A DNA stretch of 64,000 nucleotides from Eledone cirrhosa (lineage: Eukaryota): NCBI GenBank assembly GCA_964016885.1, contig OZ024747.1, positions 88,102,001 through 88,166,000 on the forward strand, in the 5' to 3' direction. Both the position numbers and the translations under genes were made by a program. The first letter of the stretch is position 1. Each line of letters begins with the position of its first letter. Of this stretch, positions 4,178 to 61,649 are shown one piece after another. The notes beneath the pieces were generated by a model. The model was given only the letters and a program-made list of their open reading frames with translations, was not told the origin of the DNA and made no database searches.

Positions 4178-4587
4178 ATGAATTCCGGTAAGAAAAAAGT
4201 TATCAAACAGTTTTCACGTTAAAGGTGGTTGGTTATGCAGAAGAATTTGGAAATAGATCAGCAGAAAGGGAGTTTGGAGTGTCAGAAAAGGTGGTGAGAG
4301 GTTGGAGGAAACAAAAAGACAAGCTGGGAGAAATGCCTAAATCAAAGAGAGTAGCAAGGTTTGGAGTATCACCATATCAAGATCTTGAAAAAGAGCTAAA
4401 TGATTGGGTTTTAGATATCAGGAAAAATGGACACATTGTTACAAGACTTTCTATAAGAACGAAAGCCCTTCAACTTGCACCAAAGTACTACTTATTCCAA
4501 TTTAAATCGTCAGCAGGGTGGTGCACCAGGTTTATGAATAGGTTTGGACTGACTCTTTGCCAAAAGACACGGTGTAAATTTACGTAA
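4178..4587 (+). pseudogene. pogo-like transposase N-terminus (Brinker-type HTH plus CENP-B HTH); DDE domain missing
   Basis: ORF 4225-4587 reads GNRSAEREFGVSEKVVRGWRK...LEKELNDWV...FKSSAGWCTRFMNRFGL. The ATG at 4178 is reached through a frameshift in an A run. Confidence 0.85.
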
Positions 4588-25329: not shown

Positions 25330-25675
25330 TCATCATCATCATCATCATCATTTTACGTCCACTTTTCCCTGCTTGCAAGTGTAGGACGAGAACTAATTCT
25401 GGCTTGATTTCTACAGCTGGATGCCCTTCCTAACACCAACCTCATTTACAGTGAGTGCTGGGTGCTTTTTTGCTGTGGCACCTCCACGACCACTTTGCAG
25501 TGGAATGATATGGACCCCAGTCCCTATCATCTCATTTCTACAGCTGAGTAAACTGGAGCAATGTGAAATAAAGTGTCTTGCTCAAGGAAACAACACATCA
25601 CCCGGTCTGAGAATTGAACTCACAACCTTTCGATTGCAAGGCCAATGCTCTAACCACTAAGCCAGGTGGCTCCAT
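25330..25675 (-). mobile_element. SINE family B with RTE-derived body and tail
   Basis: Near-collinear inverted copy of 37423-37768; (GAT)n tail. Confidence 0.9.
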
Positions 25676-54627: not shown

Positions 54628-54670
<43 letters not shown>

Positions 54671-54675
<5 letters not shown>

Positions 54676-55718
54676 ACAGGAGGCTGGACTGGTGTAAATC
54701 CTTGGAAGGTTTATTATACTATGATCATTTCAATGACCGGGTTCAGTATGAATCCGGTGATATCATCAGGTATTCGAAATATAATAAAGGAATATAACAG
54801 ATAAAATCCATGGGGCTGAAAATCAATGGGGCTGAAAATCAGAGACAAGAGGATGACCGACTATTTAGCAGCTTCTACCTCAGTCGGTCGCCCTCGAGTG
54901 TTGATTATTAAGTCTACTTATGACCATCTGGTGAGGGGGCGTAAGCTTATAATGTACTACTACCTCCCCGTCAAAGAGAAAAGGTCATGCCACACTCAGG
55001 CTGACCGTGCGTGCTAGAAATTGCTGCAAAAAATGTTTTTTCCAAAGCACATATATCTTTAACAAAGGCATATATAGTGGGCGTCTGTATGGTATAATGT
55101 AAGGTCAGAAATTTTGGTTAGCAATTAGGAATGTAAACTTATGTTTAAAGTTATAGGATGAAATTAGAAAAATAAGAGAAATAAGGTTTGAGTTGTGAGA
55201 TTTAGTTAAAGAATTTACAGAAAGAGTCTTTTATGAAAAAGTTTAAGTGTATTATAGATATTCTCGATAAGTTTTCAGGGTAGGATATAGATTAAGCCCT
55301 TGTTTAGCAGTGAATAATCAGCGACGACTGCAGATCCCGGCCAGCCCTTCCTAACCATGTGTCAGCCGTTCCGAGTGATATCGTCTAGCTAAAGAAATGG
55401 AAATTAATTTTTCCGAGCACTCCAGGAATGTAACTGTTTTAGGCGTCAGGTGTGCTAGCGGGAAGTCCGCCGTCACCGTCAGGCCATCGTCTATACCAAA
55501 CGAATACTATTAATTCACACAGGAGGGGATTTATTTACGTGCCAGTAGAGGGAGGCATGATACAGCTAATAGTTATGATTACGCCTAGAAATTTTAAGGT
55601 ACTATTTGGCGGCCAAAACCGGCGGCGCGCCGGGCCCCGGGACGAAACAGCCATTCCTAGTGATTTCGTTGGCCAGTTCGATCCAGTGGTGAACCAACTA
55701 ACCTAAATAAAAATAAAA
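54671..55718 (-). mobile_element. About 1.05-kb CpG-rich non-coding element inside (TA)n, with a 3' hammerhead; Penelope-like or retrozyme-like
   Basis: TA arrays on both sides (54630-54670 and 55719-55741); no recognisable long ORF; CpG-rich right end (CGGCGGCGCGCCGGGCCCCGG); hammerhead about 45 nt from the left end. Confidence 0.65.
54716..54773 (-). ncRNA. Minimal type I hammerhead ribozyme motif
   Basis: Minus strand reads ATAC-CTGATGA-TATCACCGGATTCA-TAC-TGAACCCGGTCATT-GAAA-TGATCA-TA-GTAT. Stem I is perfect (4 bp), stem II pairs 11 of 14, and stem III is the palindrome ATGATCAT. Confidence 0.75.
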
Positions 55719-57152
55719 ATATATATATATATATATATATAAGTAATAATAATTTAATTAAATTGGGCAAAACCATTTTGCTGGTTTGAGAGTTGATGAG
55801 GGTGAAGATGTGAGTGTGTAAACTTGCCTTTCTTTATTTCCTCTTCTGGTCACTTCTATGTGCCAACACACTTCTCCTTGTCCTCCTCTCCTTTCAATCT
55901 TTTCTTTATTTCATCTGCCTGTCACCCACCTTATGGATTGTCTCTCTGTAGACCACTGGTCGCTGGTCTCTGTCCTCTGAGGCACTTTTGTCCATCGCTG
56001 TCTTTGACAGCATTCAGCTGAATTAACAACTGTTCTAGCAAAGAGTTTTCTCATTTTTATATACATATTAAGTTATTTAATTGATTTACCAACGTTTCTA
56101 TCAATACAGAAATATGTGCCATCATTCTCCTCTGTACTGATTTCTTCAGAATCCATTAAACAATATAAATAACATTTATCTTTGATATCAGACATCTCCA
56201 TTTCGATGATGTAAACAAATTTAAAATACAGTTGGTAAGACATTAAAACTTTATGGAAGACTAAACGTACAAATTAAAATTTATTAGTGATAAAATATAA
56301 CGTGCCATAACTAACCAATATTTACTTGACTTCTAAAATTTAATGCAAGTATATTAGACTCTAAAATAACAATGTAGAAACACAGCCAAAGCTCATAAAT
56401 TTAATCATACTTATTAATTGAAGAAACAACAATTTCAAGCATAACATTAATAGAATATATTAATAAAAATAGTATAAAATTATGTAAGCTTAATTCAATA
56501 ATAAAGTATCAATCACTAGGAGAATTACTAGTTATTAAGAAATTAACAGCCTAAAAAACCCGTATTAATAGAAGTGAAAGGATTATTTTTAGGATCATAA
56601 TAATTATTGTACAGTAAGTTAATTACATTCAACTGCATTCATACACACACATATATAACCATGTACACTCACATATAGACACATTTAACTACATATACAT
56701 ATATACATATAAACCTGTGCACTCATACTTAAATTATGTAGGCACACACATATATACAAATACAAACATATATGCACACACACACATACATACACACAAA
56801 AATATAGGCAGATATACACCTATGTACTTACAGAAAATCCATATTTTCATGATCCTTAACACACATACCTACATATACATTTTCATACACACACACACAT
56901 ATATATATATATACACATACACATGTACTAAACGCACATATGTACACATATTAATTCTGGTTATTTTATACTTTTATAAGCACTGTGATATTGTAAAACT
57001 ACTGTGGCTAGAAATTAATTGATTGGATTAAACTTTTAACTGTCATTTGAATCATTCTTTGCCTAATATGGTTGTGTTATTAACTTGTCTATATAAATAT
57101 ATATATATATATGTATATATATATAAACACACATTTATACATACACACACAC

Positions 57153-57533: not shown

Positions 57534-60500
57534 CATCATCATCATCATCATCTTCGTTTAACGTCCATTTTCCACGCTAGCATGGGTTAGACGGGAGTTG
57601 TCTCACTTGAGGCAAGGCTGGTCGGGTGATCGTGTCTCGCTCATATAGGACTATCTGGCAGGTTTTCTACGGCTGGATGCCCTTCCTAACACCAACCACA
57701 TTTACAGTGTGGACTGGGAACTTTTTACCGTGTTACCTACATGGCCACATTACAGCGTGGACTGTGTGTGTTTTTTGTCGTGACACCTACACGATCTCGA
57801 TCTCATTATCTCATGCTGTTGGTGGGAGTGGGAGGATAGGGTAGGGGTAGTGGATTGGAGTGTATATTTGGTTAAGAGGTGCCTACTGACTGTAGGTTTC
57901 GCTTTGTACATAGGCAAGGCGGGTCTTCTGTATTACTGCATAGCGCCAAAGATCTCAGTCCAGAGACATTGTCTTAGAGAGGTGCAAGTGTGTAAGGTCG
58001 GAATTTATCAGATCATCCCAGGTTTTTCTGGGTCTACCTACTCCGTAAACAACCATCAATTTTGATCACCCTGCACTTTTTTATGCAGCTGTCATCTTTC
58101 ATGCGCATCATGTAACCATACCAACGTAGTCTCCTCTCAAGTAAACAGCATCTGATCCCTCTTATTCCTAATTTCTCACTTAGTTCATTTATGCTTTGCC
58201 GTTCACGTATATTACTATTACACATCCAACGGAGCATGAATGCTTCGTTCCTTTCCAGTCTACGCAGGTCCTCTGCACGTAATGTCCATGTCTCACTGCC
58301 ATGTAACATTGCTGTTCGTATACAGGCATCATACAATCTGCCTTTCATTTTTAGAGAGAAACCTTTTGTGGCCAACAGCGGTATAAGCTCTCTGAACTTT
58401 TTCTATCCCATTCTGACTGGCTACTGTACTTTCAGAACACCCTCCACCACTGCTGATTTCGTCACCCAGGTACCGGAAAGTGTCTACTATTTCTATAGAA
58501 CCATCTGGGCAATAGAAGGAGCTAGTATCCTTTGGACACTTGCTACTTATTGCACCTGAGCATTGGCCATATATAAAGTCTACGTTCTTAGATAGTTTAC
58601 CTGTGATCCCACTACATCTTTTATGTACCCATACTTTGCATTTGGAACATAAAATGGAATTTCTGCCTACTCCTTTCTGCCTACTCAGCTATGAGCGTTA
58701 GATCATCTAAGTAGAGGGGTTTACTTTTAGCTAGGTACTTCTTTTGTAGTTGTCATACAAGAAAAAGAGCATCTGTGGTACTTTTACCTGACACAAACCC
58801 AAACTGCATTTCATCTAGATCAATTCGCTCTCTGATTAGTTGTGCTATAACTCTTTCTGTGACCTTCATGACCTGGTCAACTAACTTAATGCTTCTATAG
58901 TTTCCCCTATCTGGAGCATCCCCTTTACCCTTGTAGCAGATAATGATGATGCTGTTACGCCAGTCTTTCGGTATGACCCCATTCTGTATTACTTGGTTAA
59001 CTATACGGGTGACCATAGTGTGTCCCACCATAGCAGATGCCTTCAACATCTCAGAAACTATCTCCGAAGGCCCAGCTGCCTTGCCTGTCTTCATCTTTGA
59101 TTGCCTTACTTATTATACTACCTTTAACTTGCACCGCTGGTCTTTCTATTGGATCGATTTGGGGCAGACTATCTTTTTCCCATTTATTCTCCTCATTTAA
59201 TAGTCTCTCGTAGTGACACTTCCAGGCTATCTTCTTATCAGTATCACTGAGCGCAAGTACACCATTATCATTACGGATACACTTCTCCCCGACAATATCA
59301 CGGTTTTCCTTGACACATTGTCTAGCAATCCTGAACACCTCACGTTTTTGGTCCTCACGTTGTAGAACATGCTTGAACTTTCTATCCTCTGCTACCCTTT
59401 TTGCAAGGTACACTTGTCTCCTAGCTTCTCTCCTAACCACATGATAGTGCTCTCTACTTCCCCCATCCTGCCATACTTTCCAAGCCTGCTTTTTGGCCTT
59501 TATTGTCTCTTCCACCTTATTGTTCCACCACCAAGTTACTCTCCTCCTGCCATACTTTCCAAGCCTGCTTTTTGGCCTTTATTGTCTCTTCCACCTTACT
59601 GTTCCACCACCCAAGTTACTCTCCTCCTGCCAATAGGTCTGCTCCAGCCACAGATTTCATCCGTTGCTTTCAGCAGGTTCACTTTCAAGAATTGCCACTG
59701 TTCCTCTATATCGCACATCTCTAATTGCTCTTCCTTATTGTCAAAGGAATCAAGTAATAAGCTTTTAAATTTGTCACTGGCTATGGGTGTCCTTCAACTT
59801 CGATATTCTTCTCCTCAAGGTAGGCCTTCTCTGTCGTCGAGTACGTCTATTCCTGACTATGAGGTCACTAACTACTAGGCTATGTTGGGAGGTGCATTCT
59901 TCACGGGGGAGGGATTTAGTGTTTACAACAGACATTTTGTCCGGTCTTCTAGTAAGGATATAATCTATCTATCTGGCTGGCGTGTTCTCCTGATCTATAG
60001 GTGATCAAGTGGTTTTCACGTTTTTTGAAGTTTGTGTTACAGATAGTTAGGCTATTTGCGTCACAGAATTCCAGGATTCTGAAGCCCTCCTCATTTCTAT
60101 TTCCAACCCCATAGCCTCCATGGATTCCATCATAGCTATCACTATGTTGTCCAACGTGACGGTCTAGATTGCCAGCAATAATTAAGTAGTCACTGTCGGT
60201 TATTTGGGAGTTAGTGTGCATTAGCATCTCATAGAACCTGTCCTTTATAACATCAGGTAGACCAGATTGGGGTGCATAAGCAGATATTATTGTCACAGTA
60301 GTTCTATTTAATTCAATTATTCTGTCATTCACTCTATTTACGACAATTACCTTATCTACCCATTTTTCAGCTAACATAATTCCTACACCACCCTGTCCGT
60401 TGTCATTTCCCACCCAGAAAAGTTTATAGCATCGTTTTTTAACCCACAATGAATCTGGCAGACCCCCTCTCCACCTAGTCTCTTGAATACAACAAACATC

Positions 60501-60548
60501 AACTTCTTTACGTTCAAGCATCTCTACAACCTCATTTGTAGTTTTCAT
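57534..60548 (-). mobile_element. RTE-clade LINE, 5'-truncated, frameshifted and internally deleted
   Basis: APE endonuclease (CIQETRW, GVG, SAYAPQ, SQID; 59949-60548); RT start (GKAAGP, YKGKGD..NYRSIKL, QFGF..GKSTTDA; 58753-59094); C-terminus (LHGSETW, RLRWYG; 58034-58375); 3' UTR and (GAT)n tail. Confidence 0.95.
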
Positions 60549-61649
60549 TATTTTCCATATTTGGTAACTGGAAAATATTTGGCTATTCTGAAAAAAAAAT
60601 TAGTCTCTTGATGTTTCGATAGCAAGGATTTGTTCTTCCTGCTTCACTTCATCATCATTATCATCATTTTAACGTCTCCTTTCCCTGCTAGCAAGGGTTG
60701 GACAGGTAATAAAATAAGTACAAGATTTGAAAAAAAAACTGATGTCTATATGATCAATGAAATCTTATTACAGGGATGCTCTAGTATGGATGCAGTCCAA
60801 TGGCTGAAACTAGTGAAAGGGTGCTGAAGTATAGAGATTTAGTGAGTAAATATATCTCATGGCATTGGCTCCTACTTTCTATATTAGGTCGATAGATTTG
60901 AAGTAGGGCATCAGTTCATTCAATCTTCCAAATTTTACATCACACAGCAATAAGTTATTAATAACGATGTTGTTGATAAAATTATACTACTACAGTGTAT
61001 GCACAAGTACAAAACCTGAAAAGATTTTCTCAGAGCTGTTTACAGATAAAGCTATATTCTCTTGAAAATGGCAGTTTATATAATGGATAAATGTATAGAT
61101 GGATATTTATAATGGATATATGCATATATATATATATGTGTGTGTGTGTGTGTTTATGAATAATTGTATCTCAGCCAAATAGAAACTGAACACACTTCAT
61201 GTGATATTTATTTTAAGTACAAATTTTAAAGGACATGTTTTTTTTTATTTCGTAAACAAATGGAAATAATACATTTTTGCATGAATGAAATAGTTTGGGT
61301 TAATTAAACAAAAATATTAGTAAAAATTTATAAACTGTTGGATGCATTAATCAAATTAACCTGTTTTTTTTTAGATTTTTATCTATACTAAATATTTCAT
61401 TCTCCTCAGATAATATGCATTAAAGAGGAAGAGATAGGCATGTTTGTTTGTTGTGGCATCTAGAAAGATTCTAAATATCATAAGGATTGCATTAACTAAC
61501 AAATAGTAGCACTAATTTACTAATTCAGTAACACTAGTTTTAAGAGAAAGCCAAATTGTATATTTATCCTGTTCTATACTAATAGCATGGTATTTCTATA
61601 AACAGATCTTGCTGAATGTGTATTTATACCTATTCAGTAACTGATTTTA

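What the first reader, a model, noticed from the sequence alone, without database searches (positions are those of the whole stretch)
54630..55741. Non-coding 1-kb element in (TA)n carrying a hammerhead ribozyme with palindromic stem III
Seen: the minus strand at 54716-54773 has all core bases (CUGAUGA, GAAA, UA), a perfect stem I and the self-complementary stem III AUGAUCAU. The element has no recognisable ORF, keeps many CpGs and sits between two TA arrays. Known: Penelope-like elements (PLEs) and retrozymes carry minimal type I hammerheads that can work as dimers through a palindromic stem III. Inference: a young, microsatellite-targeting, non-autonomous ribozyme-bearing retroelement. Caveat: the stem II closing pair is U-U in this copy.
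Basis: partly seen in the sequence, partly recalled or inferred. Interest (0 to 1): 0.75.

Follow-up and report, generated by a model that had tools for sequence, protein, structure and literature searches.

The report
Protein-less Penelope hitchhiker with hammerhead ribozyme
This stretch is a cut-short, two-armed copy of a protein-less jumping repeat whose hammerhead-ribozyme-shaped motif occurs over 5,000 times in this animal genome; the two arms of such copies almost always end at two different fixed sites, likely because a borrowed Penelope-type enzyme copies one RNA onto both ends of a DNA break, starting beside two small predicted hairpins.

Summary
The hammerhead motif is real (minus strand 54716-54773) and has more than 5,000 genomic copies. 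The '1-kb element' is not the element: it is a truncated, head-to-head insertion (a 1,000-bp arm plus a 45-bp inverted arm) of a non-coding unit of about 1.5-2.9 kb. The family has at least 7 subfamilies and all Penelope-like (PLE) hallmarks except an ORF. The U-U pair is no defect: 82 of 83 copies have it, as do most published Hydra-clade hammerheads. Copies end at two fixed sites 139 nt apart; 39 of 41 two-armed insertions use each site once (p=4e-10). Each site lies a few bases before a conserved bulged hairpin that a young Hydra-like autonomous element also carries. The hammerhead is conserved between subfamilies, yet 0 of 100 listed copies stop at its cleavage site. Best reading: a non-autonomous PLE mobilised in trans, probably by a Hydra-clade enzyme, by twin target-primed reverse transcription. 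The partner family, cleavage and expression are not shown. This scan noted the two-end rule and the twin hairpins earlier on other DNA; I found neither in print in 7 searches.

The parts
54630..54670 (.). (TA)n target, left side
54671..55670 (-). Long arm: 1,000 bp of the non-coding unit, sense on minus; its 3' end at 54671 is the inner fixed end (site B)
54716..54773 (-). Minimal type I hammerhead, Hydra-like U-U at the base of stem II, palindromic stem III; predicted cut between 54720 and 54719
54803..54841 (.). 16-bp tandem duplication found only in this copy among 20 aligned
54849..54895 (-). Conserved 13-15 bp hairpin with compensatory changes; 5' ends of arms pile up at its base, just after a CACT Inr-like motif (about 54895-54900)
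55670..55715 (+). Short inverted arm: last 45 nt of the tail, ending at the outer fixed end (site A); fused head-to-head to the long arm with about 1-2 nt overlap
55720..55741 (.). (TA)n target, right side

Best explanation
The stretch is a truncated, head-to-head insertion of a high-copy, non-coding repeat family with Penelope-type ends and a hammerhead motif, likely mobilised in trans by the reverse transcriptase/endonuclease of an autonomous Penelope-like element, probably of the Hydra clade. SHOWN: a tandem unit without an ORF, (TA)n targets, two fixed 3' ends (B inner, A outer, 139 nt apart), one of each per two-armed insertion, a bulged hairpin sequence (RCTC-C...G-TT-GAGY) a few bases 3' of each end, and a hammerhead conserved between subfamilies. 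INFERRED: a copy that still reads through site A is transcribed, mostly from a start about 160 nt upstream of the hammerhead cut site. Two enzyme subunits bind the two hairpins of one uncleaved RNA and nick both strands of a (TA)n. Each DNA end primes reverse transcription a few bases 5' of its hairpin. The two cDNAs stop at variable points and are joined head to head. The hairpin used is not copied, so the window copy (long B arm, 45-nt A arm) has neither hairpin and would be dead on arrival. The hammerhead is predicted to cut only slowly, as a dimer through AUGAUCAU or with protein help, and a cut linear RNA does not appear to be the template.
For: Copy number: 4,729 exact 30-mers and 5,058 intact-core motifs, reversed controls 0. 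Head-to-tail units of 2,057-2,271 bp without a TA spacer. 0 of 91 read-through junctions examined (of 192) lead into a sense PLE ORF. End rule in 78 pattern-sampled loci: 39 A+B, 2 B+B, 0 A+A, 3 A+undefined, p=3.6e-10. The same inner+outer rule holds in 10 of 10 scorable two-armed copies of autonomous family P and 2 of 2 of Hydra-like family H (read by eye). The two arms come from one subfamily, median 2.6% apart. Hairpin 1 is 97.5% paired in 15 aligned copies against 12-50% when slid; hairpin 2 keeps its pairs in about 73-78 of 91 copies; most ends lie 2-7 nt before a hairpin. The TTGAGYRCT strand lies within 100 nt of a downstream (TA)n in 20 of 34 sequence clusters against a mean of 1.1 of 11.5 for 40 permuted motifs; an upstream RCTC partner is present in 19 of 28 near against 6 of 19 far clusters. 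H has a U-U hammerhead and this hairpin in its tail; U-U is in 13 of the 20 Hydra-clade families displayed from File S2 of PMC8557442. Hammerhead 5' half: 3 of 35 positions vary among 7 subfamily majorities against 102 of 280 elsewhere, p=5e-4, and all three changes keep the structure. In vitro precedent: two internal start sites, extension of both DNA strands, hammerhead dispensable (PMC11167929).
Against: No autonomous element sharing this family's terminal sequence was found. U-U hammerheads also occur in Neptune-like family P, and P obeys the two-end rule without the TTGAG motif in its tail, so the motif is not needed for the rule in general. A second hairpin after H's outer end is at best degenerate. 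Hairpin 1 has no compensatory change, only one G-U change. The motif was chosen after seeing the data. Arms are closer to each other than to the nearest other copy in only 10 of 51 pairs, and only 7 share private variants, so 'one RNA molecule' is not proven. Two B+B insertions exist. Of two direct fusions of a family arm to a coding PLE, one is to Hydra-like H (L159) and one to a Neptune-like family (L156), and target deletions could explain both. The monomer's predicted best fold hides the cut site in an 11-bp alternative helix (-17.4 against -7.4 kcal/mol for the hammerhead fold without stem III). The in vitro study saw no strand difference in start-site use.
Confidence: 0.7

Rival explanations
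1. A long retrozyme: the hammerhead cuts tandem transcripts as a dimer, the 2-kb monomer is ligated into a circle, and a PLE enzyme copies the circle; the two fixed ends arise as in the best explanation.
For: Hammerhead conserved between subfamilies. Ligation would leave no cut-site footprint, which fits 0 of 100. Adjacent units at L031/L032 are 99.7-99.9% alike. The circle model is proposed in PMC4209133.
Against: 34 of 106 arm 5' ends fall 140-180 nt upstream of the cut site, then drop to 4 in the next 20 nt and at most 3 per 20 nt beyond, as expected for a linear RNA starting there; an Inr-like TCACT and a TATA-like motif lie at that point in one subfamily, as described for pLTRs in PMC3846280. 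Snap-back of the cDNA at the hairpin could mimic this on a circle. Other tandem pairs are only 92-98% alike. Published retrozyme units are 51-972 bp.
Confidence: 0.2
2. Inverted copies arise by self-priming on an antisense RNA into one hairpin cDNA, and the one-sided tail is made by endonuclease resolution of the intermediate (the models of PMC3846280 and PMC8557442), not by two priming events on a sense RNA.
For: Several arm junctions are fold-backs at the 5' hairpin. This model also gives one long and one short end.
Against: The offset is 139 nt here, about 67 nt in H and about 60 nt in P, and follows the spacing of sense-strand hairpins rather than a fixed stagger. Arms are often very unequal and non-overlapping, as in the window (1,000 against 45 nt). 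Both ends abut (TA)n. Sense RNA is the template in vitro.
Confidence: 0.12
3. The copies are only 5'-truncated ends of an autonomous PLE with a very long 3' UTR.
For: Most copies are short 3' fragments. Family H has a 3' UTR of about 2 kb or more. Only 91 of 192 read-through junctions were examined, and 30 of the loci reach only 1.5 kb downstream.
Against: Complete units run from site A back to the next hammerhead without an ORF in several subfamilies. 32 of 91 junctions reach the next hammerhead within the locus, 31 of them after 1.3-2.7 kb, and none shows a sense PLE protein match.
Confidence: 0.06

Closest known systems
Hydra clade of C-terminal EN+ Penelope-like elements (Craig et al. 2021, PMC8557442; passages; supplement searches; supplement parts 52-53)
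   Same: (TA)n preference, partial tandems, inverted 5'-truncated copy, one-sided tail, hammerhead near the 3' end, U-U at the base of stem II, GAGCACT/GAGTA-type motif near the 3' end of several published consensus sequences (read by eye)
   Different: No RT/GIY-YIG ORF; tail 139 nt rather than 30-40; stem II about 14 positions long; no sequence homology to a Hydra family shown
Minimal type I hammerheads of metazoan PLEs (Cervera and de la Pena 2014, PMC4209133; parts 1-2 of 4 read)
   Same: Core, 4-bp stem I, long stem II, palindromic stem III predicted to need a dimer
   Different: U-U in place of the G10.1-C11.1 pair that the paper calls highly conserved
Metazoan non-LTR retrozymes (PMC7229834, part 2 of 6 read; bioRxiv 10.64898/2026.07.22.740005, parts 1-2 of 5 read)
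   Same: Non-coding tandem units, each with a type I hammerhead, PLE-derived
   Different: Unit about 1.5-2.9 kb against 51-972 bp; mostly dispersed 5'-truncated copies; circular RNA not shown
Non-autonomous Chlamys elements such as MRC1 (passage in PMC8557442)
   Same: Non-coding PLE derivative with pLTRs and head-to-tail copies
   Different: Those resemble an autonomous partner at the 3' end and belong to a clade that mostly lacks canonical hammerheads; here the partner is not identified
Poseidon of Anolis carolinensis, PAc (Frangieh et al. 2024, PMC11167929; parts 1-2 of 4 read)
   Same: Two internal RT start sites that define the tail; AT-rich target; no ends at the hammerhead cut site
   Different: There the sites are adjacent, lie inside the ORF and showed no strand preference; here they are 139 nt apart in non-coding RNA and used once each per insertion

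Membership tests
Minimal type I hammerhead (PMC4209133) | Core CUGANGA, GAAA, UH | tested here: met
   intact in 64 of 83 de-duplicated copies
Minimal type I hammerhead (PMC4209133) | Short stem I (4-5 bp) and long stem II | tested here: met
   stem I intact in 73 of 83
Minimal type I hammerhead (PMC4209133) | Palindromic stem III region | tested here: met
   intact in 71 of 83; predicted duplex -7.2 kcal/mol
Minimal type I hammerhead (PMC4209133) | G10.1-C11.1 pair | tested here: not met
   U-U in 82 of 83; this matches the Hydra-clade form instead (13 of 20 families displayed)
Minimal type I hammerhead (PMC4209133) | Self-cleavage as a dimer | not testable with these tools
   needs an in vitro assay
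Autonomous EN+ Penelope-like element | ORF with telomerase-like RT and GIY-YIG endonuclease | tested here: not met
Non-autonomous Penelope-like element | Partial tandems / pLTR arrangement | tested here: met
Non-autonomous Penelope-like element | 5' truncation with an adjacent inverted copy | tested here: met
   44 two-armed insertions in 78 loci
Non-autonomous Penelope-like element | [quoted passage not shown] | tested here: met
   39 of 41; 139 nt, longer than the published 30-40 bp
Non-autonomous Penelope-like element | 3'-end similarity to an autonomous partner | tested here: inconclusive
   shared hairpin motif and U-U hammerhead with family H; no alignable partner found
Hydra-dependent element | (TA)n insertion preference | tested here: met
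   not specific, since families P and N2 share it
Hydra-dependent element | Mobilised by a Hydra-clade RT | not testable with these tools
   only indirect signs; H was assigned to Hydra by eye from RT motifs, no tree was built
Non-LTR retrozyme | Tandem non-coding units each with a type I hammerhead | tested here: met
   true for a minority of loci
Non-LTR retrozyme | Short unit (150-450 bp; up to 972 bp) | tested here: not met
   about 1.5-2.9 kb
Non-LTR retrozyme | Abundant circular RNA | not testable with these tools
   needs RNA data or experiments

The most novel reading that the evidence does not exclude
Twin bulged hairpins on one sense RNA position the two subunits of a Hydra-type RT dimer, so each end of a double-nicked (TA)n primes at its own site. 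This would explain both the one-sided tail and the head-to-head structure of Penelope insertions. This family is a natural experiment: a roughly 45-nt loop in hairpin 1 goes with a tail of 139 nt instead of about 60, and a purely non-coding 2-kb cargo is carried in trans. Its hammerhead is kept by selection although cut RNA leaves no footprint, so its role would lie outside template production.
Probability: 0.5. Interest if true: 0.75.

Novelty: new variant of a known kind. Interest (0 to 1): 0.5.

Why it matters
How Penelope-like elements integrate, why their copies are head-to-head with a tail on one side, and what their hammerheads do are stated as open in PMC8557442 and PMC11167929. This family gives a large countable sample (39 of 41 for the two-end rule), two start sites far enough apart to be mutated separately, and a candidate minimal cis signal that would let a non-coding 2-kb RNA be inserted into (TA)n in trans. 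The hammerhead itself is a known type, and the window copy is an ordinary fragment.

Tried and rejected
Rfam scans gave no hammerhead match; this is a limit of the models, not evidence against. A DNA transposon with terminal inverted repeats was considered because of the inverted 45 bp and rejected: the inverted part varies in length and units are tandem. A 5'-cutting ribozyme (HDV-like, hairpin) at the arm-end hot spot was considered by eye from recalled consensus features and did not fit; a 47-nt intron there is not conserved in one subfamily. Partner search: Neptune-like families N1, N2 and P have their own hammerheads or ends and no alignable module; a 13-nt AT-rich match to P lies away from P's ends. 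50 GIY-YIG loci held the module only once, as a separate insertion. Family H shares motifs only. A weak Pfam TLC hit on a T-rich frame of the unit is below the cut-off and was rejected. No RNA holder listed. Contigs of three runs of one sample showed no empty site and give no copy number. The search of scan notes by sequence returned nothing. Lunse et al. 2017 is not held and is recalled only. Supplements of the bioRxiv preprint and of the other papers were not seen and may list related families. The first hammerhead tally returned 0 rows through a script error and was redone.

Full report
1. Observation. The motif is present as described. One hit is found in the 64-kb window; 1 of 100 dinucleotide shuffles gave any hit and none a hit with a 6-nt palindrome. 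Rfam does not detect it. The element has no long ORF and a higher CpG ratio than any 1-kb bin of the window (0.93 against 0.33 overall).

2. The family. G000 is a 3.0-Gb animal genome; a cephalopod is my guess from recall and from scan notes, not tested. A DNA search gave 4,249 candidates, 40 scored, the best about 92% identical. Pattern counts: 4,729 exact 30-mers, 5,058 intact-core motifs, 5,318 relaxed, all controls 0. Full copies are head-to-tail units of 2,057-2,271 bp in the window's subfamily. 67 arms fall into 7 groups of three or more, 1.8-4.0% from their own majority. The window copy is 4.3% from the majority of 22 relatives, nearest 4.8%. 192 places read through the outer end. I examined 91 of them in 90 loci: 32 reach the next hammerhead within the locus, 31 after 1.3-2.7 kb, and none leads into a sense PLE ORF; PLE protein hits were on the opposite strand, one query's hits came from a translated piece of this element itself, and one 364-aa frame looks by eye like an inserted LINE. 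The family is therefore non-autonomous as far as sampled.

3. The window copy. Bases 54671-55670 match the unit forwards and 55670-55715 match the unit's far 3' end inverted. It is a head-to-head, two-armed insertion in (TA)n.

4. Two fixed ends. Copies end at A (outer) or B (inner, 139 nt upstream), nearly always against (TA)n. For an end-neutral sample I took the first 100 hits of the hammerhead 30-mer, all on contig C1: 85 loci were fetched, 7 duplicates dropped, and one hit already held as L003 left out, leaving 78. Result: 39 A+B, 2 B+B, 0 A+A, 3 A with an undefined end, 19 solo A, 18 solo B, 1 solo undefined; binomial p=3.6e-10. The window copy is B+A. Autonomous Neptune-like family P (775-aa RT + GIY-YIG frame) is inner+outer in 10 of 11 two-armed loci, one being masked; Hydra-like family H in 2 of 2 (by eye). 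Arms of one insertion belong to one subfamily (median 2.6% apart; the one pair at 17% is two separate neighbours), but they are closer to each other than to the nearest other copy in only 10 of 51 pairs. The one-sided tail is described qualitatively in PMC3846280 and PMC8557442 and tied to two RT start sites in PMC11167929. I found no count of this rule and no hairpin signal in searches.

5. Hairpins at the ends. TTGAGYRCT occurs in the tail and again about 20 nt past site A. In the fetched loci it lies within 100 nt upstream of (TA)n in 20 of 34 clusters, against a mean of 1.1 of 11.5 for 40 permuted motifs (motif chosen). An upstream RCTC partner is found in 19 of 28 near clusters, 6 of 19 far clusters and 14% of random windows. 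Hairpin 1 (8 pairs, TT bulge, about 45-nt loop) is 97.5% paired in 15 copies but has no compensatory change; hairpin 2 keeps its pairs in 73-78 of 91 copies, 12 not matching. A ends lie 1-12 nt before hairpin 2 (39 of 56 at 2 or 6 nt); B ends lie 0-17 nt before hairpin 1 (42 of 57 at 2-7 nt). H carries the same hairpin just after its inner end, and similar motifs are at the 3' ends of several published Hydra consensus sequences (by eye). P and N2 tails lack it. I reached the motif and the model; scan notes read describe the same on other DNA and led me to count the pair above the bulge.

6. The hammerhead. In 83 de-duplicated copies from similarity searches: core intact 64, U-U 82, palindrome intact 71, next pair A-U 33 or G-U 48. 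U-U also occurs in three other hammerhead families of this genome and in 13 of 20 Hydra-clade families displayed from File S2 (not all rows were shown). Among 7 subfamily majorities the unselected 5' half varies at 3 of 35 positions against 102 of 280 in the rest of the terminal module. Of the first 100 of 5,233 hits just 3' of the cut site, none stops there; the pattern would show about three quarters of such junctions. Predicted monomer folding hides the cut site; a dimer pairs through the palindrome. Activity is untested.

7. The 5' hot spot. A second hairpin about 110-160 nt upstream of the cut site shows covariation (92% paired, 4 pairs with changes on both sides). 34 of 106 arm ends fall 140-180 nt upstream of the cut site and few beyond. 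A transcription start, nuclease trimming to the hairpin, or cDNA snap-back could each explain this; a TATA-like motif followed by TCACT in one subfamily resembles the pLTR promoter of PMC3846280.

8. Partner. Not identified. The clade-level pointer to Hydra rests on the hairpin, the U-U form, the (TA)n target and a young intact H family (95-98% protein identity among 127 other hits). P is also young and has U-U. One direct fusion each to H and to N2 was seen.

9. Verdict. Real feature; a new, long-unit, long-tail, non-autonomous variant of Penelope-like elements, not a classical retrozyme. Identity as a non-autonomous PLE about 0.9; twin priming on one sense RNA about 0.7; Hydra-clade partner about 0.6; catalytically active hammerhead about 0.6. 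Interest 0.5.

Noticed in passing
L218:6337-8661: Young autonomous Neptune-like PLE (family P), 150 scored matches at 94-100% protein identity, many with a 775-aa open frame; U-U hammerhead; about 60-nt tail; two-armed copies are inner+outer.
   Followed up: partly
L281-L329: Young Hydra-like PLE (family H) whose 3' UTR carries a long microsatellite-like (TA/TG) stretch between the ORF and the hammerhead in all copies read.
   Followed up: partly
L159:1529-2560 and L156:2459-4927: Direct fusions of a coding PLE fragment (H; Neptune-like N2) to the 5' end of a family arm without a TA spacer: template switches or target deletions.
   Followed up: partly
L152:2547-2581 and L151:3714-3792: Short site-A fragments joined in direct orientation to upstream sequence (one exactly at site B), suggesting template jumps.
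   Followed up: no
loci: At least 8 further hammerhead families with different palindromes (CTAG, GTAC, TATATA, CGCG, TGCGCA, CTAATTAG, CCCGGG, GATC) sit in the same (TA)n fields; the TATATA family shows inner/outer ends and the TTGAG motif.
   Followed up: partly
window 55363-55520 and the unit just beyond the long arm: An internal 155-bp duplication (about 72% alike) in the unit; each copy holds a degenerate TTGAGTGCT-like motif of unknown role.
   Followed up: no
window 25599-25667 (-): tRNA-like Rfam hit at 29.5 bits, probably a tRNA-derived SINE head.
   Followed up: no
window 4192-4584 (+): Tc5/pogo-type transposase DNA-binding fragment (PF03221).
   Followed up: no
window 59054-60599 (-): Broken LINE with an endonuclease-domain fragment (PF03372 below cut-off); a 79-bp tandem lies at 59466-59632.
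   Followed up: no
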